A stretch of DNA of 12,788 nucleotides, taken from Gemmatimonadota bacterium (GTDB taxonomy: Bacteria; JBHIER01; G020348925). Below the pieces are notes generated by a model, which did not search any database, had not been told where the DNA came from, and saw only the letters and a list, made by a program, of their open reading frames with translations. Positions 333 to 12,788 of the stretch are shown in pieces. The stretch covers positions 563,581 to 576,368 of the forward strand of contig CP070758.1 of NCBI GenBank assembly GCA_020348925.1, given 5' to 3'. Position 1 is the stretch's first letter. Every line of letters begins with the position of its first letter. The translations under genes were made by a program, and so were the position numbers.

Positions 333-1358
333 TTAAGAGACGCTTTCAGCAAAATCAAGCGATTTCTTAGTTCTTCCAATCACCCCCTTTCCTAAATTCT
401 CAAATCGTCTCAGTTTCAGCGTTTTCTCCTTGATGTAATCCCGCATCCTCAGGATCTTCTGTCCCCTCCCATGATACACATCGGCAGGCGTGAGATTGTC
501 CAATGACTCATGATAACGGTGGTTGTTGTAATACTCCACAAACTCACCGATGGCCAGTTTCAGATCACCAGGAAAGTAGTAATTATCGAGGGTCACCACA
601 TTCTTCATCGACCGGTGATACCGTTCGATCTTCCCCTGGGTCTGGGGATGATACGGTGCACTCCGGATATGAGCCATCTCCTTTTTGCCCAGATATTCCT
701 GCATCTGTTTCGATATATAGCATGGCCCGTTGTCTGACAAAAGCCTTGGTCTGTGTCGAACCTGGACTTCGCTCACACCGGTCTTCTCCAGGGCCAGATC
801 AAGCGTCTGCTCCACATCATCGGTTGACATGGTCGGTGTCAGTCTCCAGGACAAAATGTAACGGGAATAGTCATCCATGACCGTACACAGGTAATACCAG
901 CCCCAGTGGATGATCTTGAAGTAGGAGAAATCCGTCTGCCACAGCTCATTGACCTTTTTTGTCGGTTGATGGAACTTGTCACTGGCAGACACGACGATGT
1001 AGGCAGGACTGGTGATCAGATCATATGCCTTCAAGATCCTGTACACACTCGATTCCGATATGAAGTATTCCTGGGTATCGGTAATATGCCATGCCAGCTC
1101 CCGGGGGGATTTTTCCGGATATTCCAAAGCGATATCGACGATCTGCTCCCGAATAGGGTCAGGTATCCTATTCCAGAACCGCCTGGGGGTCGGCTTCCGG
1201 TCGGCCAGTCCATCATAGCCGTTCTCGTTATACCGCCGATACCAGTCATAAAAGGTGCTGCGACAGACATCAAGCTCTTTAAGGGTCTGTTTCACTGGTA
1301 GAGGCGACTCTTCTACCAATCTGATGATCTCCATCTTCTCTGCCTGGCTGTACCGCAT
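333..1358 (-). CDS. IS3-family transposase OrfB (HTH_21 + rve/DDE integrase core)
   Basis: 341 aa. The N-terminal HTH region is ...CRSTFYDWYRRY.... The integrase core shows the spacing typical of a DDE catalytic core: WQTDFSYF...VMDDY...LSDNGPCY...HPQTQGKIERYHRS. The ORF lies in the -1 frame relative to orfA and is open from the A-run. Confidence 0.9.
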   Translation of the reverse strand: MRYSQAEKMEIIRLVEESPLPVKQTLKELDVCRSTFYDWYRRYNENGYDGLADRKPTPRRFWNRIPDPIREQIVDIALEYPEKSPRELAWHITDTQEYFISESSVYRILKAYDLITSPAYIVVSASDKFHQPTKKVNELWQTDFSYFKIIHWGWYYLCTVMDDYSRYILSWRLTPTMSTDDVEQTLDLALEKTGVSEVQVRHRPRLLSDNGPCYISKQMQEYLGKKEMAHIRSAPYHPQTQGKIERYHRSMKNVVTLDNYYFPGDLKLAIGEFVEYYNNHRYHESLDNLTPADVYHGRGQKILRMRDYIKEKTLKLRRFENLGKGVIGRTKKSLDFAESVS

Positions 1359-1372
1359 ATACCGCCCAACCT

Positions 1373-1720
1373 TTATTCCATGCCTTTCAGACTTTTTTTA
1401 AACACTCGGTTCTTCAGAGCCAGTTCAGCCACTAACTGTTTGAGCTGTTCGTTCTCCTTGCGATAGGCTTCCACTTCACTGCTAGTCGCCTCACGCTCAG
1501 TATCACCCAACAGCCGTTTCTTCCCAGCTTCAAGGAACTCTTTACTCCAGCGATAATAAAGATTGGGGTTGATTCCTTCTCTGCGGCAGAGCGATTTGAT
1601 ACTCTCCTCTCCTCGCAGCCCTTCTAAAACGATCCCTATCTTCTCTTCAGCACTAAACTTTCTTCTCGTCCTTCGTTTAATCTCTCGTACGACAGATTCT
1701 GGTGTGGTCTTCTGTTCCAT
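1373..1720 (-). CDS. IS3-family transposase OrfA (HTH DNA-binding plus leucine-zipper region)
   Basis: 115 aa. Basic N-terminus RRTRRKFSAEEKIGIV (Transposase_8-like HTH) and heptad leucines in the C-terminus (EQLKQLVAELALKNRVF). Ends VFKKSLKGME* and overlaps the A7G slippery run. Confidence 0.85.
   Translation of the reverse strand: MEQKTTPESVVREIKRRTRRKFSAEEKIGIVLEGLRGEESIKSLCRREGINPNLYYRWSKEFLEAGKKRLLGDTEREATSSEVEAYRKENEQLKQLVAELALKNRVFKKSLKGME
1392..1402 (-). promoter_or_regulatory. Programmed -1 ribosomal frameshift site (TTT AAA AAA AGT in the orfA frame; A7G slippery run)
   Basis: The minus strand reads tttAAAAAAAGtct. The orfA frame reads TTT|AAA|AAA|AGT. The -1 frame has a TAA overlapping the run and is then open as AAA|AAG|TCT|GAA... 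through to the orfB ATG 36 nt downstream. This is the classic IS3 A6-7G motif producing an OrfAB fusion. Confidence 0.6.
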
Positions 1721-2140: not shown

Positions 2141-2746
2141 ATGATTGATGAAATTTCGCGAAGACCTGTCGAGGATGAGACGGATAGAAACCTCGTCAGG
2201 ATCAGCAAATTCCTTAGCCTTGTGCTGCGGCACAAGCCGGAGACGATCGGACTGGAACTGGATGAGCAGGGATGGGCACGGGTTGATGAACTTCTATCCA
2301 AAGCCAATATGGCGGATTTACCCATGGATAGGGTATTGTTACGCCAGGTGGTCGAAGGCAGCGACAAGAAACGGTTCGCGTTCAGTGCGGATGGTGAAAA
2401 GATTCGAGCCAACTATGGCCACTCGATCGCAATCGATCTTGGTCGTGAATCAGCCGAACCACCGGAATTCCTTTTTCACGGGACAGCTATACGTTTCATA
2501 GTATCTATAAAGATGAAAGGAATCATTCCACAAGAGCGAACACATGTGCATTTATCGCCGGATGAGGAGTCGGCGATGGAAGTGGGGCGCCGTCACGGCA
2601 GTCCTGTTGTTCTGACTATCAAAGCGCGTCGCATGTATGAAGACGGATTCAAATTCTACCCGTCGGCCAGTGGTATCTGGCTGACGGAAAAAGTACCCTC
2701 CGAGTATATCATATTTCCGGCCGATACAGATTATTCAATGTTTTAA
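2141..2746 (+). CDS. kptA: RNA 2'-phosphotransferase, KptA/Tpt1 family
   Basis: 201 aa. N-terminal LVRISKFLSLVLRHKPETIGLELDEQGWARVDELL matches the KptA family signature (SK.LS..LRH.P...GL..D..GW). The motifs HGT, HVHLS and VVL are also conserved. GAAGGA Shine-Dalgarno 8 nt upstream of the ATG. Confidence 0.85.
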   Translation: MIDEISRRPVEDETDRNLVRISKFLSLVLRHKPETIGLELDEQGWARVDELLSKANMADLPMDRVLLRQVVEGSDKKRFAFSADGEKIRANYGHSIAIDLGRESAEPPEFLFHGTAIRFIVSIKMKGIIPQERTHVHLSPDEESAMEVGRRHGSPVVLTIKARRMYEDGFKFYPSASGIWLTEKVPSEYIIFPADTDYSMF

Positions 2747-2908
2747 GAATCTCCATTTGTTGATCGTCGCAAGAATATGTGGATATGTTCTCTATTTGTT
2801 TTTGACTGTCCGCCAAATTCTATATGGTGAGTTAACAGAGAGACCAGATAGTGGAGATATAAGGTTAGGATTAATATTCTCTTCGCATGATTGAAGTCAT
2901 AAACTGAA

Positions 2909-3109
2909 TTCATCTTCTTTTTCTTTGCTGGCCAAAGAAAAAGAAGCAAAAAGAAAGGCCAGCCCAAATCCTTCGCCGAGACTGCAAAGGCTCACTTTAC
3001 TGTTTTTTCCAAACTCATCCCCGCTATCGCGGGGATTCATACACGGAAAAAAAGACCGCTTCGTTCGCCTGTCGGTCTAACGGCTCAGGCTTAAGGGCAC
3101 TAAAGAGCC
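2909..3109. repeat. Intergenic mosaic repeat family, copy 1 (201 bp)
   Basis: Opens TTCATCTTCTTTTTCTTTGCTGGCCAAAGAAAAAGAAG, an A/T-rich hairpin at 2914-2946. Contains the hairpins CCCCGCTATCGCGGGG (3019-3034) and GCCTG-N14-CAGGC (3067-3090). Closes ...CTCAGGCTTAAGGGCACTAAAGAGCC. Near-identical blocks recur at 7790-8065 and 8900-9316. Confidence 0.65.
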
Positions 3110-3385
3110 AAGACAACATAATTCTCAGGAATTGATCCCGTTTTTGATAACTCAATACTGTAAAAATCCCCTTGACGAAGCGGTGTGCACGTTGTACTTT
3201 AAGCGGAACTGCTCGACGGAGTTTCGCCGTCGCGATTAATGAAATTGGAATAGGGGCGAGTGTCCTCACGAGCCGAGTAACTCTTTGACTTTTTAACTTT
3301 TTCACCTTCATCGGAGTCCGGGAAAGTGTAGTTGTTGAAATATCTGTGAAGATTGAGTAAGAAATGATAAACGAAAGGAGCGACC

Positions 3386-4516
3386 ATGGGCACGGATAAC
3401 ATCATTTTCTTGGAAGTCATCGAATGGTTTGACAAGACGGGACAGGAGCTGGTGCATCGGATTCCTGAAAAAGGCTCGGGCGAGATCAAATTCGGGGCAC
3501 AGTTGATCGTCCGGGACAACCAGGCGGCGGTCATGTTTTACAAGGGCAAAGCCCTGGACGCTTTCGGGCCCGGCCGACATACTTTGAAAACGGGTAATAT
3601 CCCCATCCTTACCAAGATCCTGGTCATCCCCTGGGGAATGACGAGCCCCCTTCGCGCCGAGGTCTACATGGTCAATATGAAGGTCTTTCCCAACCTCAAG
3701 TGGGGCACGCGGGAGCCGGTGGCCTTCAAGGATTCGGAGCTGGGGCTGGTCCGACTGCGGGCCCACGGTGTGTTCAACCTTCAGGTGGTCCAGCCGGTGC
3801 TCTTCATCAACAGCCTCGTGGGTACCATGGGTATATTCACGACAGAGGAGGTCGAAGAATATCTTAAGCGCGTCATTGTGTCACGGTTTAACGATCACCT
3901 GGGTGAAGAACTGGATAACCTTTTCGATCTGCCCGGCAGGTATGAAGAATTGTCCGAAGGCTTGCAAAAACGCTTGCAGGAAGATTTTGGCCGTTTCGGT
4001 CTGAGCCTCGAACATCTCTATATCACGTCAATAACACCACCGCCTGACGTCCAGAAGGCCATCGACGACAAGAGCCGCCTCAGTGTGATTCAAGATCTGG
4101 ACAAATTGGTCAAGATGAAAGCGGCCATGGCCATGGAAAAAGCCTCCGAATCAACGGGTGAAGCCGGCGCAGGATTCGGCATGGGGATGGGTTTTATGAT
4201 GCCGGCCATGTTTGCCAGCGCAATGAGACCCGAGACCGAAACAAAATCGGCCGCGGCGAAAGAGAAAGTTCAATGCCCGGACTGTAAGAATGCGATTCCC
4301 GAGGATGCGAAATTCTGTCCCCACTGCGGGCATCAGCAGGTCGTCTTCGGCCAGTGCACCAACTGCGGGAAAAACCTGCCACCGAACGCGAAGTTCTGCC
4401 CCAGGTGCGGGCGTCAGGTGGACGAGAAACCCACGCTCAAAATATGTCCCCAGTGTAAAACTGAGAACCTGCCCGGGGCCGCCTTTTGCAATCAGTGCGG
4501 GGAAAAGTTAGGGTAA
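3386..4516 (+). CDS. SPFH/band-7 (stomatin-prohibitin-flotillin-like, COG4260/YdjI-type) protein with three C-terminal tandem zinc ribbons
   Basis: 376 aa. N-terminal [22 protein letters not shown]...[21 protein letters not shown] is typical of YdjI-type SPFH proteins. The C-terminus carries three C-x2-C-x9-11-C-x2-C units: [38 protein letters not shown] and [26 protein letters not shown] Shine-Dalgarno 6 nt upstream of the ATG. Confidence 0.8.
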
Positions 4517-4517
4517 A

Positions 4518-5744
4518 ATGCATTTCACTGTCCAGCAGGAGTGTCCCCAGTGCGGCGGCCGCATTGAGCTTGAGGAGACCGACCACCTCATTCACTGCCC
4601 TTTTTGCCGTGTAAAGAATTTCCTCTTTGCCAAGGATTATCCGCGCTACATTCTCCCAGCGAAATCTCCAAAAAAAGAGATGATATATGCGCCGTATATG
4701 CGTTTCAAGGGTGTGGCCTTTTTCTGTTCCGGAACGTCCGTCCATCACCGGATCGTGGATGTGACCCTTCAGGGAACGAAATTGAAACAACTACCCCTAT
4801 CCCTGGGACTGAGGCCTCAAACACTGAAGATGGAATTTGTCTCTCCAAAGGTGACGGGCTCTTTTTTAAAGAACGCCATTGGTGTCAGCGATGTCTTCGC
4901 AAACGTGGGGAGCCGAAGATCCGTTTCCGGGGAAGAAAAACTGTTGCATCGAGCCTATGTCGGAGAGACACTGAGTTGTATCTATTCCCCTCTTTATGTC
5001 GAGAAGAATCAAGTCGTTGATGCTGTGACCAATAAACCCCTGACTGAACTTCCACATGGCGACGATGTTTTTGCTCAATTTACGGACACACATCCTGAGT
5101 GGCGGATTACGTTCATGTCCACTCTGTGTCCCAACTGCGGCTGGGATTTGGTGGGCGAACGGGACAGTGTGGTCTTGATCTGCAGGAACTGCAGTACAGT
5201 CTGGGAGGCGTCCGAAGGTAAGTTCATGGAGGTACAGTACAGCGTTGTTCCAGGCAAGAATGAGAGGACGGTGTATGTGCCCTTCTGGAGAATAACCGCC
5301 GAAGAGAACACCCTGCCGGTACATTCTTACGCTGATTTTATTCGAGTAACCGGGCAGCCAATGATGGTGCGGCAGGAGTGGGAGGCTCGGGAGATGTTCT
5401 TCTGCGTACCGGCCTTCAAGATCCGGCCCGGCGTTTTTCTGCGACTGGCGGTTCAGGCGACGTTTACTCAGCAGGATTTTGAAACTGATGGGGAGGGGCT
5501 TTCTGAAAACGTGTATCCGATCACGCTCCCACTAGCGGAAGCAGTTCAAGCCCTGAAAATTACTTTAGCGCGATCAACCGTGCATGAGAAAAAAGTCTTT
5601 CCGCTGCTTCCTCAGGTGAATTTTCGTGTCAAAGGTACAAATCTCGTTTTTCTCCCTTTCAGGGATAATGGAAATGAACTCATCCAGGAGCAGAAAGGAT
5701 TCAGTATTCTTAAAAATGCATTGAAGGCAGGGCGGAATTTGTGA
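4518..5744 (+). CDS. Zinc-ribbon protein with internal duplication (two ZnR + ~170-aa domain units); possible YdjG-like partner of the SPFH protein
   Basis: 408 aa. The ATG lies 1 nt after the upstream TAA, so the pair is translationally coupled. ZnR1 is CPQCGG...HCPFC (res 9-30). ZnR2 is CPNCGW...CRNCS (res ~206-227). Each is followed by a similar segment: YILPAKSPKKEMIYAPYMRF versus VQYSVVPGKNERTVYVPFWRI. No catalytic motif recognised. Confidence 0.65.
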   Translation: MHFTVQQECPQCGGRIELEETDHLIHCPFCRVKNFLFAKDYPRYILPAKSPKKEMIYAPYMRFKGVAFFCSGTSVHHRIVDVTLQGTKLKQLPLSLGLRPQTLKMEFVSPKVTGSFLKNAIGVSDVFANVGSRRSVSGEEKLLHRAYVGETLSCIYSPLYVEKNQVVDAVTNKPLTELPHGDDVFAQFTDTHPEWRITFMSTLCPNCGWDLVGERDSVVLICRNCSTVWEASEGKFMEVQYSVVPGKNERTVYVPFWRITAEENTLPVHSYADFIRVTGQPMMVRQEWEAREMFFCVPAFKIRPGVFLRLAVQATFTQQDFETDGEGLSENVYPITLPLAEAVQALKITLARSTVHEKKVFPLLPQVNFRVKGTNLVFLPFRDNGNELIQEQKGFSILKNALKAGRNL

Positions 5745-5785
5745 TTTAAGAGTTGTCCTTAAGGCACAGGTGGTTGCTGCGAAAT

Positions 5786-5825
5786 AGATTCTTCGACTCC
5801 GCTCCGCTTCGCTCAGAATGACAAA
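5786..5825 (+). repeat. ~40-bp REP-like element, copy A (GATTCTTCG-A-(CTYCG)3-CTCAGAATGACAAAG)
   Basis: The sequence is gattcttcgactccgctccgcttcgctcagaatgacaaag. It recurs at 10684-10722 in the same orientation and at 9528-9563 inverted. Pentamer order varies in the core. Confidence 0.6.
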
Positions 5826-6039
5826 GAGTTTTATGTCGACCCTCGCGACAATGTGAGGCAGGCACGGCTCAACGGCTGGCATGAAATCTAAAAAGAGAAA
5901 AATCCACCCTAACTCTCTTTTTCACAAGGAGGGGATAAAGACATCTTATGGAAGGTGGGATTGAGGGTATAGTAAAATCCTGTAAGATAAAATTTGTCGT
6001 ATAGGAAGTTTCTATGGAAGCTCTTTGGACAGAACGGAG

Positions 6040-6057
6040 CAGGGATATATATCCCTG
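6040..6057. promoter_or_regulatory. Perfect 18-bp palindrome CAGGGATATATATCCCTG upstream of the decarboxylase gene
   Basis: Exact inverted repeat CAGGGA-TATATA-TCCCTG, about 117 bp upstream of the 6174 ATG. Candidate operator, or a -10 region embedded in a hairpin. Confidence 0.35.
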
Positions 6058-6102
6058 CAATACTATTCGCCCGTCATACATATACTTGGCGATCAAGGAA
6101 AG

Positions 6103-6155
6103 GACGTAACCGTTCACCGAAACGGGCTTCGTTACCGTAACCGAATGACGTAACT
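6103..6155 (+). promoter_or_regulatory. Array of three CGTAAC(C/T) direct repeats immediately upstream of the decarboxylase start
   Basis: ACGTAACCG at 6104-6112, CGTAACCG at 6136-6143 and ACGTAACT at 6148-6155. The array ends about 20 bp before the GGAGGGG Shine-Dalgarno and the ATG. Candidate transcription-factor binding sites. Confidence 0.35.
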
Positions 6156-6173
6156 TGTCAATACGGAGGGGAA

Positions 6174-7616
<1,443 letters not shown>

Positions 7617-7789
7617 AAAACGATGCCATGACATTGAGTACCGAAATAAAATAAGAATATGTAGATACCTCTTTGAGGTTTGTTGTAGAGATGTCACACA
7701 TTCACGAGTTGAATATATGGTGTGAGGCTTTGAAAGAGCATAGATATAACATTTGTTAACTTCGTGTTTCAAACGGAACACGTAATGAA

Positions 7790-8065
7790 TACTTCTTTTT
7801 CTTTGCTGGCCAAGAATAAATTTGCTCACAATGAAAAAGAAAGGGGTACCATATCCGTTTGTCATTTTTCATTTTCTTTGCTTGTCCAAAGAAAATGAAG
7901 TAAAAGAAATGACAGCCCAATAAACCTTCGCCGGGATCGTCGGCGGTTCGCTTCGCTGTTTTTCCGAAACTCGTCCTCCCTGCGGTCGGACTCAGACAGC
8001 CGGAAAAACATCCGCTTCGCTCACTGGTCGATCTAACAGCTCAGGTTTCAGGGCATTGATGAGCC
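7790..8065. repeat. Intergenic mosaic repeat family, copy 2 (~276 bp; two A/T hairpin modules plus a divergent 3' module)
   Basis: Opens ACTTCTTTTTCTTTGCTGGCCAAG. Carries a second hairpin CATTTTCTTTGCTTGTCCAAAGAAAATGAAG, then ...GACAGCCCAATAAACCTTCGCCGGG.... The 3' module is ...CCGCTTCGCTCACTGGTCGATCTAACAGCTCAGGTTTCAGGGCATTGATGAGCC. Confidence 0.6.
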
Positions 8066-8090
8066 AATGTGTTCCGACAGCATACCTTCT

Positions 8091-8105
8091 CATTCTTGTG
8101 AGAAC
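8091..8105 (+). promoter_or_regulatory. Shared 15-mer CATTCTTGTGAGAAC, copy 1, 26 nt upstream of the ATG at 8131
   Basis: Identical 15-mer at 9641-9655, upstream of the next cassette gene. Contains the inverted repeat TTCT-N4-AGAA. Candidate shared promoter or operator. Confidence 0.4.
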
Positions 8106-8130
8106 CTGAAAATAAAGGTGCGGTTGTTCA

Positions 8131-8844
8131 ATGGAAATGAATAGGAAAACTGCTGCTTCAATAAGGGCCGGGATTGGCCTGCAAAACGAGCGGTCTCTCC
8201 ACGCTGCCATCAAAGAATGGTACTCACGTCCAGACGATCGTTTCGAAGTTATGGTTGACAATTATGTCGTCGATATCGTGCGAGACGATGTGCTCATTGA
8301 AATTCAGACGAAGAATCTTTCGGCCATTCATCGAAAACTGAGAGCGTTGATTCAGAATCATCCTGTCCGTTTGGTTTATCCGATACCGGAGGAGAAGTGG
8401 ATCGTCCGGGTTTCAAAATCCGGCGAAAAGATATTGAGCAGTCGAAAATCTCCTAAGAGGGGAAAATTGTCTGAGATCTTTGAAGAAGTCGTGTATATCC
8501 CCGGTCTTTTAAAGGAAGATCATTTCACCCTTGAAGTCCTGATGATTCAGGAGGAAGAGGTACGATGTGATGATGGCAAAGGGAGCTGGTGGAGAAAGGG
8601 TGTGAGCATAGTCGACAGACGATTAATTGATGTTGTGGAACAAATCCGGTTCAGCGACACGAAAGATTTTGGACGGTTTTTACCGAGAACGTTAGCTGTG
8701 CCCTTTACGAATAAAATGCTTGCTGAGGAGAGGGGTGAATCGGTCTCTCTGGCCCAGAAGATGACGTATTGTCTCAAGAAAATGGGATTGTTGAAAGAGG
8801 TAGGGAAGAAGGGCAATGAGTTATTGTTTGAGATAGTAAGATGA
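8131..8844 (+). CDS. Hypothetical protein; putative PD-(D/E)XK-fold nuclease-like N-domain with a winged-helix-like C-terminus
   Basis: 237 aa. The pattern helix-E (ERSLHAAIKEWY), then beta-strand D (NYVVDIVRDD), then hhhExQxK (VLIEIQTKN) is characteristic of restriction-endonuclease-fold and Rpn/YhgA-like proteins. The C-terminal LAQKMTYCLKKMGLLKEVGKKGNELLFEI looks like a wHTH. The family is not identified and the assignment is inferential. Confidence 0.55.
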   Translation: MEMNRKTAASIRAGIGLQNERSLHAAIKEWYSRPDDRFEVMVDNYVVDIVRDDVLIEIQTKNLSAIHRKLRALIQNHPVRLVYPIPEEKWIVRVSKSGEKILSSRKSPKRGKLSEIFEEVVYIPGLLKEDHFTLEVLMIQEEEVRCDDGKGSWWRKGVSIVDRRLIDVVEQIRFSDTKDFGRFLPRTLAVPFTNKMLAEERGESVSLAQKMTYCLKKMGLLKEVGKKGNELLFEIVR

Positions 8845-8899
8845 GATGAAACGATTCGCAGGGGGGGTACCATTTCCATCATATGAGAAAATTAAAAGG

Positions 8900-9316
8900 T
8901 TCATCTTCTTTTTCTTTACTGGCCAAAGAAAAAGTGTATTCGCTTTGCTCAACACTTCCAAGGGGCTCTCGCCCCTATGGCGGATTTCAGTGTTCAACCA
9001 GCTCACATCGATATTCTGTTACCCCTCGGAGGAAAGCACATTCTTTCCTCCGAACCACCTGATGTACATCTTGAAAATTTACACAATTTCCAAGATGCAT
9101 AAGAATCAAAAAGAAAGACCAGCCCAAAGCCTTCGCCGAGACCGTCAACGGCTCACGGCACTGTTTTTTCAAAACTCATCCCGCTTTCGCGGGATTCAGA
9201 CACGGAAAAAACGAAAGCCTGTCCTGAGCAGTTCGACTTCGCTCACTATAAACTTTGTCGAAGGGCTCCGTTCGCCTGTCGGTCTAACGGCTCAGGCTTC
9301 AGGGCATTGAAGAGTC
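8900..9316. repeat. Intergenic mosaic repeat family, copy 3 (417 bp; copy-1 backbone with a ~170-bp insert and a duplicated hybrid 3' module)
   Basis: Opens TTCATCTTCTTTTTCTTTACTGGCCAAAGAAAAAG. A 170-bp insert spans 8937-9106. The sequence then resumes CAAAAAGAAAGACCAGCCCAAAGCCTTCGCCGAG...CCCGCTTTCGCGGG.... The 3' end holds both a copy-2-like unit (GACTTCGCTCACT...) and a copy-1-like unit (GTTCGCCTGTCGGTCTAACGGCTCAGGCTTCAGGGCATTGAAGAG). Confidence 0.6.
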
Positions 9317-9395
9317 GATGCATTATCATAGTACAATTTCTTATGGTTCTTGATTATGAAAGTTATACCATCATGTCTGACATTCCTTAAGTTGA

Positions 9396-9634
9396 TTTAT
9401 TTAATCTGATTAATTCATGAAGTACTATGCAGACGAATGCACAGCTCTTGCGAAACCGGTGCTGCATGCAGATTTATCCACTCCACAAGGCCATACTGGC
9501 CTTGTTCCGGTCGAAATGACAGAAGGTGTCATTCTGAGCGGAGCGAAGCGAAGCCGAAGAATCTGAATGGTAACTGCTTGCATATTACGTGTATGGCATA
9601 CAACGATATGTTTGTGATTAATTCAGATTAATAA
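9396..9634. mobile_element. MITE-like insert, ~240 bp, bounded by imperfect inverted repeats (TTAATCTGATTAATTCA ... TGATTAATTCAGATTAA) and carrying one inverted REP-like element
   Basis: The left IR lies at 9396-9412 and the right IR at about 9615-9634. The interior holds GTCATTCTGAGCGGAGCGAAGCGAAGCCGAAGAATC (9528-9563), which is the reverse complement of the 5786 and 10684 elements. No ORF of its own. Confidence 0.4.
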
Positions 9635-9640
9635 CCAATA

Positions 9641-9655
9641 CATTCTTGTGAGAAC
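9641..9655 (+). promoter_or_regulatory. Shared 15-mer CATTCTTGTGAGAAC, copy 2, 39 nt upstream of the ATG at 9694
   Basis: Exact match to 8091-8105. Followed by an AAGGATAAGGAAA Shine-Dalgarno-like region. Confidence 0.4.
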
Positions 9656-9693
9656 TCAAAGATGTCTTCCATCTGAAAGGATAAGGAAATACG

Positions 9694-10326
9694 ATGTCCG
9701 CAAAACTATGTCCGAAAATTATTCTTGAGGGAACCCGGCTCACACTGAAAACGGACATTGCCTTTGCCCTGAACGAACATCCGCGTATTGTCGGTCCTCG
9801 GAAGTACAGATATCACTCGCCGTTGATCTCGGCGGAATGGTGTGCCTTCACCAACGTTCCCTGGGGACGGGGGCTCATCAATTTCGAGCCGCAGGAGGAG
9901 GATCGGGCCATGGAGACATACAAAACGTGGGCTCGATTGTTCGAGTTGTTGTGTTATTATTCCTGGATCATTGACCGTTTTCATATATCGACCCGGGCGT
10001 ACCAGTTGCAGACGTACGATACAGATTACGATTTCGGCTGGCTGGAGGAGCGACTGGCTGCCCTCGGTTTCCACCTCGTCTTCTGCACACGGACGCCGGA
10101 GTCCTTTGAAGCGGCCCGCGGGGAGAGAATAAAGATATCCGGGAAACCGGATCAGTACGATAATCTGGATGTCTTCATTCGTGAGCAGGAGCTCATGCGC
10201 CGTCTGATCGGTGAGTCCGTTTTACCCACGCTGGAGCTGGACATGTCCGATAGCAATGTGGGATCCGCAGTGGAGAGGATCGCCGACTGGCTGAGGGAGA
10301 CCGGCGGTGCATGGGCAAAAGAGTGA
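9694..10326 (+). CDS. Thymidylate-kinase-like (dNMP kinase fold) protein with a degenerate Walker A motif
   Basis: 210 aa. The N-terminal KIILEGTRLTLKT aligns with the Tmk P-loop h-h-h-EG-x-D-x-[AS]-GKST, but the glycine before the lysine is leucine (GTRLTLKT). The Tmk DR(Y/F/H)xxS..AYQ motif is retained as IDRFHISTRAYQLQ. Either a pseudokinase or a kinase of altered specificity. Confidence 0.55.
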   Translation: MSAKLCPKIILEGTRLTLKTDIAFALNEHPRIVGPRKYRYHSPLISAEWCAFTNVPWGRGLINFEPQEEDRAMETYKTWARLFELLCYYSWIIDRFHISTRAYQLQTYDTDYDFGWLEERLAALGFHLVFCTRTPESFEAARGERIKISGKPDQYDNLDVFIREQELMRRLIGESVLPTLELDMSDSNVGSAVERIADWLRETGGAWAKE

Positions 10327-10683
10327 TCGGAGCATTCAGTGTAACGAGAAAAATATCTTGAACACATTCGATACAGCCTAACCTTAAAAGTTTTGAGATT
10401 TTTACAGACACAACGTCTTTCCATTCGTTCCGAAATCCCCCCAATTTACTCTATTTTTAAATTCTCCAATTAAGTTGACGATATTCTTGATCCATCGACT
10501 CTCCACATGACAGCAAGTATCAATGAGAGTATGAAACTGTTGACTTGCAAAGCCGTCATTTTAATCCCCGGAACAAGCCAAGGGCGGGATTCGGGGAGAT
10601 ATGGCCTTCATCCCTACAGATTCCTCGATTCGGCGGAGCCTGTGCCAGGCTAAATACGTCACGTTAAGGTGTTCGCCATGCCA

Positions 10684-10722
10684 GATTCTTCGACTACGCT
10701 TCGCTTCGCTCAGAATGACAAA
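10684..10722 (+). repeat. ~40-bp REP-like element, copy C
   Basis: The sequence is gattcttcgactacgcttcgcttcgctcagaatgacaaa. Same ends as copy A. The core pentamers are CTACG, CTTCG, CTTCG. Confidence 0.6.
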
Positions 10723-10973: not shown

Positions 10974-12788
10974 ATGAAGAGATTGTTTTTGTCTGTAGTG
11001 GTATTCGCTGTGGCATTGAACGTATGCTATGGAGACTCCGTAGATTCCCTTTCGATGAAGGACATCGAGGTTCAGGCTATTCGTTTGTCCGAGGAAGTCA
11101 TTGTCGATGGGGTTCTGTCGGAATCCGTGTGGCACAATGGATACTGTATTACTGAATTTACGCAACGGGAGCCCGATGAGTGGGCTGAAGCCACGGAGAA
11201 GACGGAAGTGCGAATTGCTTATGACGACGACGCTCTGTATGTGGGGGCCAGAATGTACGATTCCGCGCCGGACTCCATTATTGCCCGGCTTGGCCGCCGT
11301 GACCAATGGCCCAGCGCCGACTTTTTTCGGTTCTATATCGATCCCTACTACGATCGGCGCAGCGGTTTTTATTTCGGATTGAATGCCGCCGGAACCTGCG
11401 ACGACGGGATTTTGTACAACGACGAGTGGAGCGACGATTCGTGGGACGGTGTGTGGGAGGGGAAAGTCAATATTGACGAATTGGGCTGGACGGCGGAGAT
11501 GCGGATACCCTATTCACAGCTCCGTTTCCAGAAGAAGGACACCTATGTCTGGGGGATCAACTTCAGGCGATGCATTGAAAGGAAACATGAACATGCTTAC
11601 GTCGTCTTTGTGCCGACGGACGGCAGCGGATTCGTCTCCCGCTTTGTCGATTTGGTCGGCATCGATAATATTAATCCGGCCCGTCAAATGGAGATATTAC
11701 CTTACAGCCGGCTGAAGGCCGAGTATGTCCCAGCTGATCCGGACGATCCTTTCAATGACGGCTCGAGATATCCACCTGATGTCGGGGCCGATTTTAAGAT
11801 AGGTCTTGGGAACAATCTGACCTTGGATGCCACAATCAATCCCGATTTCGGGCAGGTTGAGGTCGATCCGGCGGTCATCAATCTGGGTGATGTGGAGACC
11901 TTTTACAGCGAGAAGCGACCTTTCTTCATCGAAGGCTCTTCGATCTTCGAATTCGGATACGGTGGCTCCCGCAACTTTTGGAGTTTCAACTGGAGCGGTC
12001 CGGAGTTCTTCTACAGCAGACGCATTGGCCGGCGTCCTCAGGGAAGTCTTCCCGATCATGATTGGGTTCAGGTTCCGGAAGGAACCCAGATCCTCGGGGC
12101 AACCAAATTGAGCGGAAAGATCGGAAATAACTGGAACGTGGGGACGCTCCTCGCTCTCACAGCCCGTGAGAATGCGAAACTCGATACATCCGGCCATACA
12201 TTTCGGACGGAAGTGGAGCCGCTCACCTATTACGGAGTGGCTCGTGCCCAGAAAGAGATGAACGAGGGGAAGCAGGGGTTGGGCTTCATCTCCACGCTCT
12301 CCAAACGTATGTTTGAGGATGCTCGGCTGAAGGACGATTTCAACGGAGCTGCCGGGACTTTTGGCATCGACGGCTGGACGTTTCTGGACGCCGAGAAGAT
12401 GTGGGTTATCACCGGTTGGGCCGGTATGACGCACGTAAGTGGGAGTATGCAGCGGATGCTGTCCCTTCAGGAAAGCTCCCGGCATTATTTCCAGAGACCG
12501 GACGCTTCCCACGTGAACCTGGACAGCTCGGCGACGTCGATGACCGGCTATGCCGGCCGTATTCTCGTCAATAAGCAAAAGGGGAACATCATTTTTAACA
12601 GTGCTCTCGGGGTGATCGATCCCAAATTTGACTTGAACGACATGGGCTTCATGTGGCGCACGGATGTGATCAACGGTCATCTCGGCGGCGGCTACAAGTG
12701 GACCAAGCCCGGAAAATATACCCGGTACGTTTCGCTGATCGGCGCCGTGTTCCAAAACTACGACTACGGTTGGAACAATACCTGGCGG
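10974..12788 (+). CDS. Secreted DUF5916 / carbohydrate-binding-family-9-like domain protein (3'-partial; continues beyond the window)
   Basis: GGGGGAG Shine-Dalgarno 6 nt upstream of the ATG. Signal peptide MKRLFLSVVVFAVALNVCYG. The frame was translated by hand over 604 codons without a stop. The family-typical stretch is ATINPDFGQVEVDPAVINLGDVETFYSEKRPFFIEGSSIF. The 352-aa ORF 11697-12755 on the opposite strand is judged to be an antisense artefact. Confidence 0.85.
   Translation, partial: MKRLFLSVVVFAVALNVCYGDSVDSLSMKDIEVQAIRLSEEVIVDGVLSESVWHNGYCITEFTQREPDEWAEATEKTEVRIAYDDDALYVGARMYDSAPDSIIARLGRRDQWPSADFFRFYIDPYYDRRSGFYFGLNAAGTCDDGILYNDEWSDDSWDGVWEGKVNIDELGWTAEMRIPYSQLRFQKKDTYVWGINFRRCIERKHEHAYVVFVPTDGSGFVSRFVDLVGIDNINPARQMEILPYSRLKAEYVPADPDDPFNDGSRYPPDVGADFKIGLGNNLTLDATINPDFGQVEVDPAVINLGDVETFYSEKRPFFIEGSSIFEFGYGGSRNFWSFNWSGPEFFYSRRIGRRPQGSLPDHDWVQVPEGTQILGATKLSGKIGNNWNVGTLLALTARENAKLDTSGHTFRTEVEPLTYYGVARAQKEMNEGKQGLGFISTLSKRMFEDARLKDDFNGAAGTFGIDGWTFLDAEKMWVITGWAGMTHVSGSMQRMLSLQESSRHYFQRPDASHVNLDSSATSMTGYAGRILVNKQKGNIIFNSALGVIDPKFDLNDMGFMWRTDVINGHLGGGYKWTKPGKYTRYVSLIGAVFQNYDYGWNNTWR

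What the first reader, a model, noticed from the sequence alone, without database searches (positions are those of the whole stretch)
9694..10326. Thymidylate-kinase-like protein with a degenerate P-loop next to a nuclease-like gene
The protein retains the Tmk family's EG...K(S/T) P-loop position and the DR(Y/F)xxS..AYQ nucleoside-binding motif. The second P-loop glycine is replaced by leucine (GTRLTLKT rather than GxxxxGKT). This usually abolishes or re-tunes phosphate binding.

The gene is carried in its own repeat-bounded cassette directly downstream of a PD-(D/E)XK-like/wHTH gene, and a KptA RNA 2'-phosphotransferase is also in the window. Possibilities include:

- a nucleotide-modifying or nucleotide-depleting defence component;
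- a pseudokinase regulator;
- a kinase acting on a modified or phage-type nucleotide.
Basis: partly seen in the sequence, partly recalled or inferred. Interest (0 to 1): 0.6.

Follow-up and report, generated by a model that had tools for sequence, protein, structure and literature searches.

The report
Uncharacterised, highly conserved thymidylate-kinase-like protein family
The gene encodes a member of a large, unannotated and unusually strongly conserved bacterial protein family that is a remodelled relative of thymidylate kinase; its odd phosphate-binding loop is a family trait rather than decay, and nothing links it to phage defence or to a mobile cassette.

Summary

The protein belongs to an unannotated family: more than 7,700 sequence clusters and at least 599 species, all seen as MAGs, mostly Chloroflexota plus about a dozen other phyla. 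Members are 72-83% identical although synonymous sites are saturated.

The residue before the Walker-A lysine is the only hypervariable P-loop position (F/L/H/G/Y...). YorR has Phe there. The Leu is therefore tolerated, not degenerate.

Thymidylate-kinase positions that contact dTMP are altered, which suggests a different acceptor.

The genomic context argues against defence:
- No neighbour is conserved across 74 loci.
- No homologue was found in phage, plasmid or viral collections.
- A relative keeps the same gene order without the flanking repeats, so these are later intergenic insertions.

Best reading: an active phosphotransferase of the Tmk superfamily with an unknown, non-dTMP substrate. 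A non-catalytic nucleotide binder remains possible.

The parts
9694..10326 (+). CDS of the 210-aa Tmk/YorR-like protein (core clade of an unannotated family)
9727..9753 (+). Walker-A/P-loop EGTRLTLKT (E12-T20). L18 replaces the second glycine. R15 sits where Tmk carries Asp/Glu.
   Evidence: Alignments. Residue counts: G13 309/309, T14 304, R15 267, L16 273, T17 274, position 18 F117/L88/H34/G31, K19 274, T20 272. Aligned to E. coli IEGLEGAGKT and to YorR LEGPDCCFKS. The model has strand 8-13, then a loop, then helix 19-26, with pLDDT 94.
9775..9873 (+). Most conserved segment of the protein: a basic, aromatic-rich region (E28-F52, part of it inserted relative to Tmk/YorR) followed by TNVPWGRG (T53-G60), which aligns with the Tmk 'TREPGG' dTMP-phosphate loop
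   Evidence: Residues 31-66: mean top-residue frequency 0.96, and 22/36 positions are >=98% identical in 193 core sequences. hhalign pairs FTNVPWGRGL with E. coli FTREPGGTQL and leaves a 12-residue gap in the E. coli row before it. Counts. Segment pI 9.2 against 5.4 for the whole protein. This region has the lowest model confidence, pLDDT 67-74.
9973..10005 (+). DRFHISTRAYQ, the counterpart of the Tmk DR(H/Y)..S..AYQ motif after strand 3
   Evidence: D94 304/306, R95 302/304, F96 302/303, H97 296/303, Q104 299/307. Aligned to E. coli GDRHDLSTQAYQ and to YorR IDRFVYSNLVYA.
10114..10140 (+). LID-like basic segment ARGERIKIS (A141-S149)
   Evidence: R142 261/304, R145 262/284, K147 216/274. Aligns with YorR KRLRVRG. 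Lies within the stretch (residues 91-172) of the weak Pfam Thymidylate_kin match. Deleted in the divergent 'GTK' subclade.
9527..9565 (+). Upstream copy of a dispersed ~40-nt repeat (GTCATTCTGAGCGGAGCGAAGCGAAGCCGAAGAATCT). Genomic context, not part of the gene's function.
   Evidence: Inverted repeat I2. Three copies in the window against 0 expected. The same motif occurs in Chloroflexia loci L023 and L028.
10682..10720 (-). Downstream, inverted copy of the same dispersed repeat
8836..9671 (+). Repeat-bearing intergenic block with no counterpart in the syntenic relative L094, where the corresponding gap is 54-66 nt
   Evidence: blastn of the window against L094. Gene calls. Alignment.
8131..8844 (+). 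Upstream neighbour: DUF8091 (PF26351) protein with a PD-(D/E)XK-like N-terminal domain and a winged helix. Adjacent to the Tmk-like gene only in this lineage.
   Evidence: (invariant D48, E57, Q59, T60, K69). Absent from the 73 other Tmk-like loci.

Best explanation
The gene encodes a stand-alone cytoplasmic enzyme of the thymidylate-kinase (Tmk) / YorR branch of P-loop nucleotide kinases. It belongs to a previously undescribed, very slowly evolving family found on chromosomes of uncultivated bacteria.

Most likely it still binds a nucleoside triphosphate on its unusual Walker-A loop. K19 and T20 would hold the beta/gamma-phosphate and Mg2+. The side chain at position 18 would point away from the phosphates, which would explain why it is free to vary. 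With D94-R95 and the LID arginines R142/R145, the protein would transfer the gamma-phosphate to a phosphorylated, nucleotide-like acceptor. That acceptor would be held by the invariant basic and aromatic segment (residues 28-66) and by Q104.

The acceptor is probably not dTMP, because the Tmk positions that read dTMP are changed.

Shown here: the fold, the homology, the motif conservation, the purifying selection, the lack of mobile or defence context, and that the flanking repeats are secondary insertions. Inferred: catalytic competence, the orientation of residue 18, and the class of substrate.
For: Fold and homology:
- AF2 model pLDDT 90.1.
- Family profile against PDB sequences: YorR E 1.2e-3.
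- hhalign against YorR: probability 89%, E 2e-6, 153 columns.
- YorR itself passes the Pfam Thymidylate_kin threshold, 28.2 bits against 27.
- PHROG 761 'thymidylate kinase': E 1.8e-5, and 1.8e-7 for family member P0218.
- Weak Pfam Thymidylate_kin hits in 12 of 30 members.
- hhalign against verified E. coli Tmk lines up the P-loop, the TREPGG loop and DRH..STQAYQ.

Catalytic-type residues kept in the core clade: E12, G13, K19, T20, D94, R95, R142, R145.

The Leu is tolerated. Position 18 is hypervariable and is Gly in about 10% of sequences, including P0122, whose 90% cluster has 536 members. YorR has Phe there.

Altered acceptor site. R15 replaces the P-loop Asp/Glu of Tmk, N54 replaces the TREPGG Arg, and T75 and W79 align with E. 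coli F74 and R78.

Selection. Across 74 genes the median pS is 0.76 (saturated) and pN 0.166. In 193 core sequences, 79 of 210 sites are >=98% identical. The protein is more conserved than the neighbouring PyrD, GatB and enoyl-CoA hydratase genes in the same genome pairs.

Context. Varied, ordinary-looking metabolic and housekeeping neighbourhoods, with no neighbour conserved across phyla.
Against: - No activity data exist for this family or for YorR.
- No curated family model reaches threshold.
- The alignment to E. coli Tmk has low probability (28%), so the residue-by-residue statements about thymine contacts are tentative.
- A divergent subclade of 42 proteins (P0139-like) has G-T-K instead of x-K-T and lacks the LID, yet keeps the acceptor-side motifs. 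The function conserved across the whole family may therefore be ligand binding rather than phosphotransfer.
- The model coordinates could not be inspected, so the P-loop geometry and the direction of the residue-18 side chain are not verified.
- Model confidence is lowest (pLDDT 67-74) in the conserved insert.
Confidence: 0.5

Rival explanations
1. Non-catalytic nucleotide- or ligand-binding protein (pseudokinase, sensor or adaptor). The Tmk fold is kept to bind a small phosphorylated ligand or a partner macromolecule, and the extreme conservation reflects an interaction surface rather than chemistry.
For: - The Walker A is non-canonical throughout the family.
- In the divergent subclade the Lys/Thr order is swapped and the LID is deleted, while HPxxxG, ISAxW, PWG, DRFH-ST-YQ and EQ are retained.
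- About 60% of sites are >=90% identical across phyla (125 of 210). That is unusual for a small metabolic kinase and more typical of proteins with conserved partners.
Against: - In the core clade, to which the window protein belongs, every residue class needed for phosphotransfer is conserved at 86-100%: K19, T20, D94, R95, R142, R145.
- No conserved neighbouring partner gene was found.
- The protein is acidic overall, pI 5.4.
Confidence: 0.2
2. A conventional dTMP kinase in unusual dress: the housekeeping Tmk of these lineages, having displaced the canonical gene.
For: - Closest characterised enzymes by fold are Tmks.
- The DRx..S..AYQ motif and the TPE-LID arrangement resemble Tmk.
- RefSeq labels YorR 'thymidylate kinase'.
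- In 7 Chloroflexota loci the gene lies next to pyrD, a pyrimidine-synthesis gene, though convergently oriented.
- An essential role could explain the strong conservation.
Against: - Positions that recognise dTMP in Tmk are changed: P-loop acid -> R15, TREPGG Arg -> N54, and E. coli F74/R78 -> T75/W79.
- The distribution is patchy within each phylum, and every one of the 80 genome records listed is a MAG.
- A close relative (L096) lacks the gene at the syntenic site with no remnant, which is hard to reconcile with an essential gene unless another Tmk is present.
- Presence or absence of a canonical tmk in carrier genomes could not be tested.
Confidence: 0.12
3. Anti-phage defence or nucleotide-depletion module acting with the adjacent DUF8091 nuclease-like/wHTH gene (and perhaps KptA), carried on a repeat-bounded mobile cassette.
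For: - DUF8091 is plausibly a PD-(D/E)XK-type nuclease fused to a winged helix.
- The DUF8091/Tmk-like pair is adjacent, with only a 66-nt gap, in one related genome.
- An IS3-family element and dispersed repeats are nearby.
Against: - PADLOC finds nothing for either gene.
- DUF8091 is absent from all 73 other Tmk-like loci, and L096 has DUF8091 without the Tmk-like gene.
- No homologues in 50,697 phage records, 72,556 plasmids or 2.9 million viral contigs.
- Sequence conservation is far higher than is usual for defence genes.
- The repeats are insertions that came after the gene order was established.
Confidence: 0.05

Closest known systems
YorR of Bacillus subtilis prophage SPbeta (PDB 2AXP, 3KB2), a structural-genomics protein described as a 'presumed nucleoside kinase'
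   Same: - Best profile match: hhalign 89%, E 2e-6.
- Same EG....xK(S/T) loop with a bulky hydrophobic residue (Phe) in place of the second glycine, and the same IIDRF motif.
- YorR was crystallised with a guanine nucleotide, GDP-3'-phosphate (PMC10994351).
   Different: - YorR is 165 aa and aligns with gaps across much of the conserved 28-66 region.
- It has Asp, not Arg, at the third P-loop position.
- It is phage-encoded, next to a 5'-3'-deoxyribonucleotidase and near the DNA polymerase gene. The window family is absent from phage and viral collections.
- YorR's own function is untested.
Canonical thymidylate kinase (Tmk, Pfam PF02223, e.g. E. coli 4TMK)
   Same: - Same order of motifs: P-loop, TREPGG-like loop, DR(H/Y/F)..S..AYQ, TPE plus an arginine-rich LID.
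   Different: - Below the Pfam threshold: 13.6 bits against 27.
- The second Walker-A glycine is not conserved.
- The P-loop acid is replaced by Arg.
- The TREPGG Arg is replaced by Asn, and one Gly by Trp.
- Extra residues lie before that loop (12-residue gap in the E. coli row).
- The residues aligned with E. coli F74 and R78 differ.
- Cross-phylum identity is 72-83%. From general knowledge, Tmk orthologues are much less similar than that.
Deoxynucleoside kinases and phage 'nucleotide kinases' of DNA-hypermodification clusters
   Same: - In such phage clusters, Tmk- or YorR-like proteins are predicted to act as nucleotide kinases (PMC13326640). This parallels the idea of an altered acceptor.
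   Different: - No modification, glycosylation or other nucleotide-metabolism genes accompany the gene.
- It is not phage-borne.

Membership tests
Thymidylate kinase (Pfam PF02223 / EC 2.7.4.9) | Scores above the curated family HMM threshold | tested here: not met
   13.6 bits, E 0.054, against a gathering score of 27. 12 of 30 family members give only weak hits, best E 0.024. No NCBIfam model hits.
Thymidylate kinase (Pfam PF02223 / EC 2.7.4.9) | Tmk-type P-loop NMP-kinase fold with a LID | tested here: met
   [not shown]
Thymidylate kinase (Pfam PF02223 / EC 2.7.4.9) | Canonical Walker A, GxxxxGK(S/T) | tested here: not met
   The window protein has GTRLTLKT. In 309 unique family sequences the position is F 117, L 88, H 34, G 31.
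Thymidylate kinase (Pfam PF02223 / EC 2.7.4.9) | DR(Y/H/F) motif followed by S..AYQ | tested here: met
   DRFHISTRAYQ at residues 94-104. D94, R95, F96 and Q104 are each conserved in at least 97% of family sequences.
Thymidylate kinase (Pfam PF02223 / EC 2.7.4.9) | dTMP-contacting residues: P-loop Asp/Glu, the TREPGG arginine, and the base-stacking Phe and Arg of helix 3 | tested here: inconclusive
   hhalign places R15, N54, T75 and W79 at these positions, so they are not conserved. The alignment probability is only 28%, and the assignment of the E. coli residues' roles rests on general knowledge.
Thymidylate kinase (Pfam PF02223 / EC 2.7.4.9) | dTMP + ATP -> dTDP activity; being the genome's essential tmk | not testable with these tools
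   Needs an enzyme assay, and a search of the whole source genome for a canonical tmk.
YorR-like kinases (SPbeta YorR, PDB 2AXP/3KB2) | Closest structural and profile similarity, with a non-glycine hydrophobic residue before the Walker-A lysine | tested here: met
   [not shown]
YorR-like kinases (SPbeta YorR, PDB 2AXP/3KB2) | Phage or prophage nucleotide-metabolism context | tested here: not met
   YorR lies beside a deoxyribonucleotidase and near the DNA polymerase gene in SPbeta. The window family has no phage, plasmid or viral homologues and sits in varied chromosomal neighbourhoods.
Known or candidate anti-phage defence systems (PADLOC-DB) | Match to a defence-protein model and/or a conserved partnership with an effector gene | tested here: not met
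   No PADLOC hit for the Tmk-like or the DUF8091 protein. None of the window's neighbours recurs in the 73 other loci.
Mobile gene cassette bounded by repeats (integron-like or MITE-flanked) | The repeats delimit a unit that moves with the gene | tested here: not met
   The inverted repeat is present. However, relative L094 has the same DUF8091/Tmk-like order with gaps of 66 and 94 nt and no repeats. The motif is dispersed. The longer repeat's GTCTAAC core does not sit in the arrangement of an integron attC site (my reading of the alignment).

The most novel reading that the evidence does not exclude
This is the founding member, for annotation purposes, of a deeply conserved enzyme family confined to uncultivated bacteria (Chloroflexota and about a dozen other phyla). 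The family would have re-tooled the thymidylate-kinase scaffold to phosphorylate a nucleotide-like metabolite not yet recognised as a kinase substrate. One speculative candidate is a 3'-phosphorylated or otherwise extra-anionic nucleotide, suggested by Arg replacing the sugar-3'-OH-binding acid. Alternatively, the family could serve as the sole, non-orthologous dTMP kinase of these lineages. In either case its near-frozen sequence would mark an important and unknown step of nucleotide metabolism.
Probability: 0.2. Interest if true: 0.65.

Novelty: new variant of a known kind. Interest (0 to 1): 0.4.

Why it matters
If confirmed, thousands of 'hypothetical proteins' in environmental genomes would gain a superfamily assignment and a testable activity.

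The family also offers a natural experiment on the Walker-A motif. The second 'invariant' glycine can be Phe, Leu, His, Tyr or Gly while the rest of the loop is frozen.

Its conservation is high for a small accessory-looking protein: 72-83% identity across phyla with saturated synonymous sites. That points to an unrecognised, tightly constrained role in nucleotide metabolism or nucleotide sensing.

For the scan itself, this case shows that flanking repeats and a nuclease-like neighbour can wrongly suggest a defence cassette.

Tried and rejected
- **Curated family models.** Pfam, NCBIfam and PADLOC give no hit above threshold for the target.
- **Direct phmmer against PDB sequences.** Only chance hits.
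- **AlphaFold-database fold search.** The library was unavailable.
- **Gene neighbourhoods.** 74 core-clade loci, three divergent-clade loci and the canonical-glycine clade show only lineage-specific synteny. In some Chloroflexota this is a divergent 130-aa protein in 14 of 74 loci, plus enoyl-CoA hydratase, GatB and a convergent PyrD. Nothing is shared across phyla. The 130-aa neighbour has no Pfam hit.
- **Riboswitch or leader search.** Rfam on the window and on 11 homologous loci found nothing upstream of the gene.
- **Canonical Tmk in the held loci.** None found, which is uninformative because the flanks are short.
- **Overlapping-gene or RNA constraint as the cause of the conservation.** Rejected, because synonymous sites are saturated.
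- **Integron attC reading of the long repeat.** The conserved GTCTAAC / GTTAGAC core lies in the wrong arm, and the paired core of about 190 nt exceeds the usual attC size (general knowledge). Rejected (the comparison is my own).
- **Copies of the long repeat elsewhere.** Exact 29-mer and 19-mer scans of JGI metagenome contigs, and of all held loci, found none.
- **Literature.** Nothing on DUF8091, and nothing for thymidylate kinase combined with non-canonical Walker A. YorR appears only as a structural-genomics entry.

Full report
**1. The observation**

The ORF 9694..10326 (+) is present and encodes 210 aa. Its product is identical to an NCBI MAG protein, JSV84_02235, annotated 'hypothetical protein' and carried on a 5.04-Mb contig labelled Gemmatimonadota.

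Residues 12-20 read EGTRLTLKT. The first Walker-A glycine (G13) and the Lys-Thr pair (K19-T20) are in place, and Leu-18 occupies the position of the second glycine. Residues 94-104 read DRFHISTRAYQ.

**2. Fold and homology**

Curated libraries do not recognise the protein. Pfam gives only a sub-threshold Thymidylate_kin match (13.6 bits against 27), and NCBIfam and PADLOC give nothing.

An AlphaFold2 model built on a 30-sequence alignment is confident (mean pLDDT 90.1, pTM 0.88). It shows the strand / P-loop / helix start and the alternating beta-alpha core of a nucleotide kinase.

- Sequence profiles agree. The family profile finds YorR among PDB sequences (E 1.2e-3). hhalign against YorR gives 89% probability and E 2e-6 over 153 columns.
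- YorR itself just passes the Pfam Thymidylate_kin threshold.
- PHROG 761 'thymidylate kinase' matches at E 1.8e-5.
- hhalign against E. coli Tmk, whose sequence I checked against 4TMK, lines up four motifs: KIILEGTRLTLKT with YIVIEGLEGAGKT, FTNVPWGRGL with FTREPGGTQL, ETYKTWARLFE with MFYAARVQLVE, and WIIDRFHISTRAYQ with WVIGDRHDLSTQAYQ. The probability is low, 28%.

The protein is a genuine but remote relative of Tmk and is closest to YorR.

**3. The family**

- The 5.8-billion-protein search returned 7,716 hits at E <= 1e-3 among the 8,000 candidates scored. All named ones are 'hypothetical', none has a Pfam domain, and the best 120 are 78-100% identical to the query.
- At 50% clustering there are only 427 representatives, mostly fragments. 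A handful of full-length divergent members are 35-48% identical.
All 80 listed are MAGs. Most are Chloroflexota (Anaerolineae, Chloroflexia, Thermoflexia, Ktedonobacteria). Others are labelled Acidobacteria, Calditrichota, Ignavibacteria, Bacteroidota, Deltaproteobacteria, Gallionella/Burkholderiaceae, Verrucomicrobiota, KSB1, Vulcanimicrobiota, Zhuqueibacterota and Synergistia. Identity is 72-83%.
- Among 74 genes, synonymous sites are saturated (median pS 0.76) while pN is 0.166. The similarity therefore reflects purifying selection on the protein. It does not reflect recent transfer or a nucleotide-level constraint.
- In 193 unique full-length core sequences, 79 of 210 positions are >=98% identical and 125 are >=90% identical. 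The most conserved stretch is residues 31-66.
- In syntenic Chloroflexota genome pairs the protein is more conserved than PyrD, GatB or an enoyl-CoA hydratase next to it.
- Similarity does not follow taxonomy closely. Non-Chloroflexota sequences are often nearest to Chloroflexota ones at about 78-83%, and two Calditrichota sequences are 94-97% identical to one from a MAG labelled Deltaproteobacteria. Together with the patchy distribution, this suggests old transfers plus loss.

**4. The 'degenerate' P-loop**

Across 309 unique sequences, G13 is invariant. T14 (304), R15 (267), L16 (273), T17 (274), K19 (274) and T20 (272) are strongly conserved.

Position 18 is the exception: F 117, L 88, H 34, G 31, Y 9, N 8, R 7, W 5. 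Family members with a fully canonical GTRLTGKT exist and are abundant; the 90% cluster of P0122 has 536 members. YorR has Phe at the aligned position (GPDCCFKS) and was nevertheless crystallised with a bound guanine nucleotide (PMC10994351).

The Leu is therefore not a lineage-specific lesion. The family tolerates almost any side chain there while the rest of the loop is frozen. The simplest reading is that this side chain points away from the phosphates, but I could not inspect coordinates, so this is an inference.

**5. Is it a kinase, and of what?**

In the core clade the residue classes a Tmk-type kinase needs are conserved:
- the Walker-A Lys and Thr;
- E12;
- D94 and R95;
- LID-like R142, R145 and K147, in a TPE...AR.ER.K.S segment that aligns with YorR's KRLRVRG.

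This favours catalytic competence.

The acceptor side is remodelled. R15 replaces the P-loop Asp/Glu, N54 replaces the Arg of TREPGG, W57 replaces a Gly, and T75 and W79 align with E. coli F74 and R78. Extra residues lie before the TREPGG-like loop, shown as a 12-residue gap in the E. coli row. The surrounding segment, residues 28-66, is basic (pI 9.2) and nearly invariant. I infer an anionic, nucleotide-like acceptor other than dTMP.

One caveat matters. A small divergent subclade of 42 proteins has G-T-K in place of x-K-T and has lost the LID, yet it keeps the acceptor-side motifs. Ligand binding rather than phosphotransfer may be what the wider family shares.

**6. Context and the defence or cassette idea**

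*No conserved association.* None of the window's genes recurs beside the Tmk-like gene in the 73 other loci. PADLOC is silent. There are no homologues in the phage, plasmid or IMG/VR collections. Neighbourhoods elsewhere are ordinary metabolic or housekeeping ones.

*Relatives of the window genome settle the cassette question.*
- L094/L095 keep the order KptA, SPFH, zinc-ribbon protein, PLP decarboxylase, DUF8091, Tmk-like at 73-80% nucleotide identity, but with short gaps (66 nt between DUF8091 and the Tmk-like gene).
- The window blocks 2755-3160, 7622-8129 and 8836-9671 have no counterpart there.
- L096/L097 keep the block up to DUF8091, followed by DUF5916, and have no Tmk-like gene or remnant.

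The repeats are thus later intergenic insertions in this genome, not cassette borders. The DUF8091/Tmk-like adjacency is a lineage-specific neighbourhood.

The 39-nt inverted repeat flanking the gene belongs to a dispersed motif. It has three copies in the window against none expected, and it also occurs as close inverted pairs in two Chloroflexia loci.

**7. Verdict**

- The Tmk assignment is right at the level of superfamily and fold.
- The defence, nuclease-partner and degenerate-loop readings are not supported.

The object is a member of a large, undescribed and exceptionally conserved YorR/Tmk-like family. My best estimate is an active phosphotransferase with a non-dTMP acceptor (0.5). 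The alternatives are a non-catalytic binder (0.2), a conventional Tmk replacement (0.12) and a defence role (0.05).

It fails membership of Pfam Thymidylate_kin on score and on Walker A, although it shares the fold and the DRx..S..AYQ motif. I rate it a new variant of a known kind, of moderate interest (0.4). The interest lies mainly in the family's size, its complete lack of annotation, its extreme conservation and its naturally variable 'invariant' glycine.

Noticed in passing
window 2940-3125, 7893-8096, 9100-9347 (within insertion blocks 2755-3160, 7622-8129, 8836-9671): Three direct copies of a repeat whose paired core spans about 190 nt. The predicted fold is one long imperfect hairpin: 40 pairs, 94% of cells paired, 6 pairs with compensatory changes, reached by only 2 of 500 shuffles. 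The G-U pairs make sense only on the + strand. The repeat is absent from syntenic relatives, from all other held loci, and from JGI metagenome contigs by exact 19- and 29-mers. Its nature (MITE, REP-like element or structured RNA) is unknown. The only Rfam match is a sub-threshold Flavo-1 hit on the adjacent A/T palindrome at 2891-2969.
   Followed up: partly
window 5786-5841, 9509-9565, 10682-10722; L023 4815-4955; L028 about 5027-5153: A short dispersed motif, GTCATTCTGAGCG(N)AGCGAAG..GAATC. It occurs three times in the window against 0 expected. In two Chloroflexia MAG loci it occurs as inverted pairs about 110 nt apart, so it is shared across phyla. Its nature was not identified.
   Followed up: partly
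window 8131-8844: DUF8091 (PF26351) is a large family, with 5,287 hits in bacteria and Bathyarchaeota. It has a predicted restriction-endonuclease-like N-terminal domain (invariant D48, E57, Q59, T60, K69) and a C-terminal winged helix. Some members are mis-named 'ribosomal protein S25' by JGI. The literature search found no paper mentioning it.
   Followed up: partly
window 2141-8844; L094 3933-9714; L096 305-4258: A syntenic block is conserved in related genomes: KptA (RNA 2'-phosphotransferase), an SPFH/Band-7 protein with triple zinc ribbons, a 408-aa zinc-ribbon protein, a PLP-dependent decarboxylase and DUF8091. L096 has two small ORFs in place of the SPFH pair. The zinc-ribbon protein has a weak PADLOC hit to candidate PDC-S64, E 0.0016, over residues 8-32, one of its predicted zinc-ribbon stretches.
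   Followed up: no
window 333-1720 (- strand): An IS3-type insertion sequence. It has an HTH_Tnp_1 orfA (1373-1720) and an rve-integrase orfB (333-1358). The relative L094 has a TPR gene upstream of KptA instead.
   Followed up: no
proteins P0139, P0145, P0156, P0160 and relatives (alignment A2): A small divergent subclade of the family (42 proteins). It has EGT(D/E/N)Y(A/G)(G/N)TK in place of EGTRLTxKT, a deleted LID, and a C-terminal extension ending ..(I/L)P(S/A)(C/V/I)(C/Y). It keeps the DRFH-ST-Q, PWG and ISAxW motifs. It may be a non-catalytic offshoot.
   Followed up: partly
L037, L041, L047, L057, L063-L066, L075, L077, L084, L087, L089 (just upstream of the Tmk-like gene, opposite strand): A conserved protein of about 130 aa (MDDKITIIEGPPPVFEHVNDGW...) with no Pfam hit. 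It is transcribed divergently from the Tmk-like gene in 14 of 74 loci, all Chloroflexota (13 directly adjacent; in L081 it lies 1.9 kb away).
   Followed up: partly
window 10974-12788 (runs off the end): A gene with a probable N-terminal signal peptide, encoding a DUF5916/CBM9-like protein. Its antisense strand carries a 352-aa shadow ORF (11697-12755, -) that is not a gene.
   Followed up: yes
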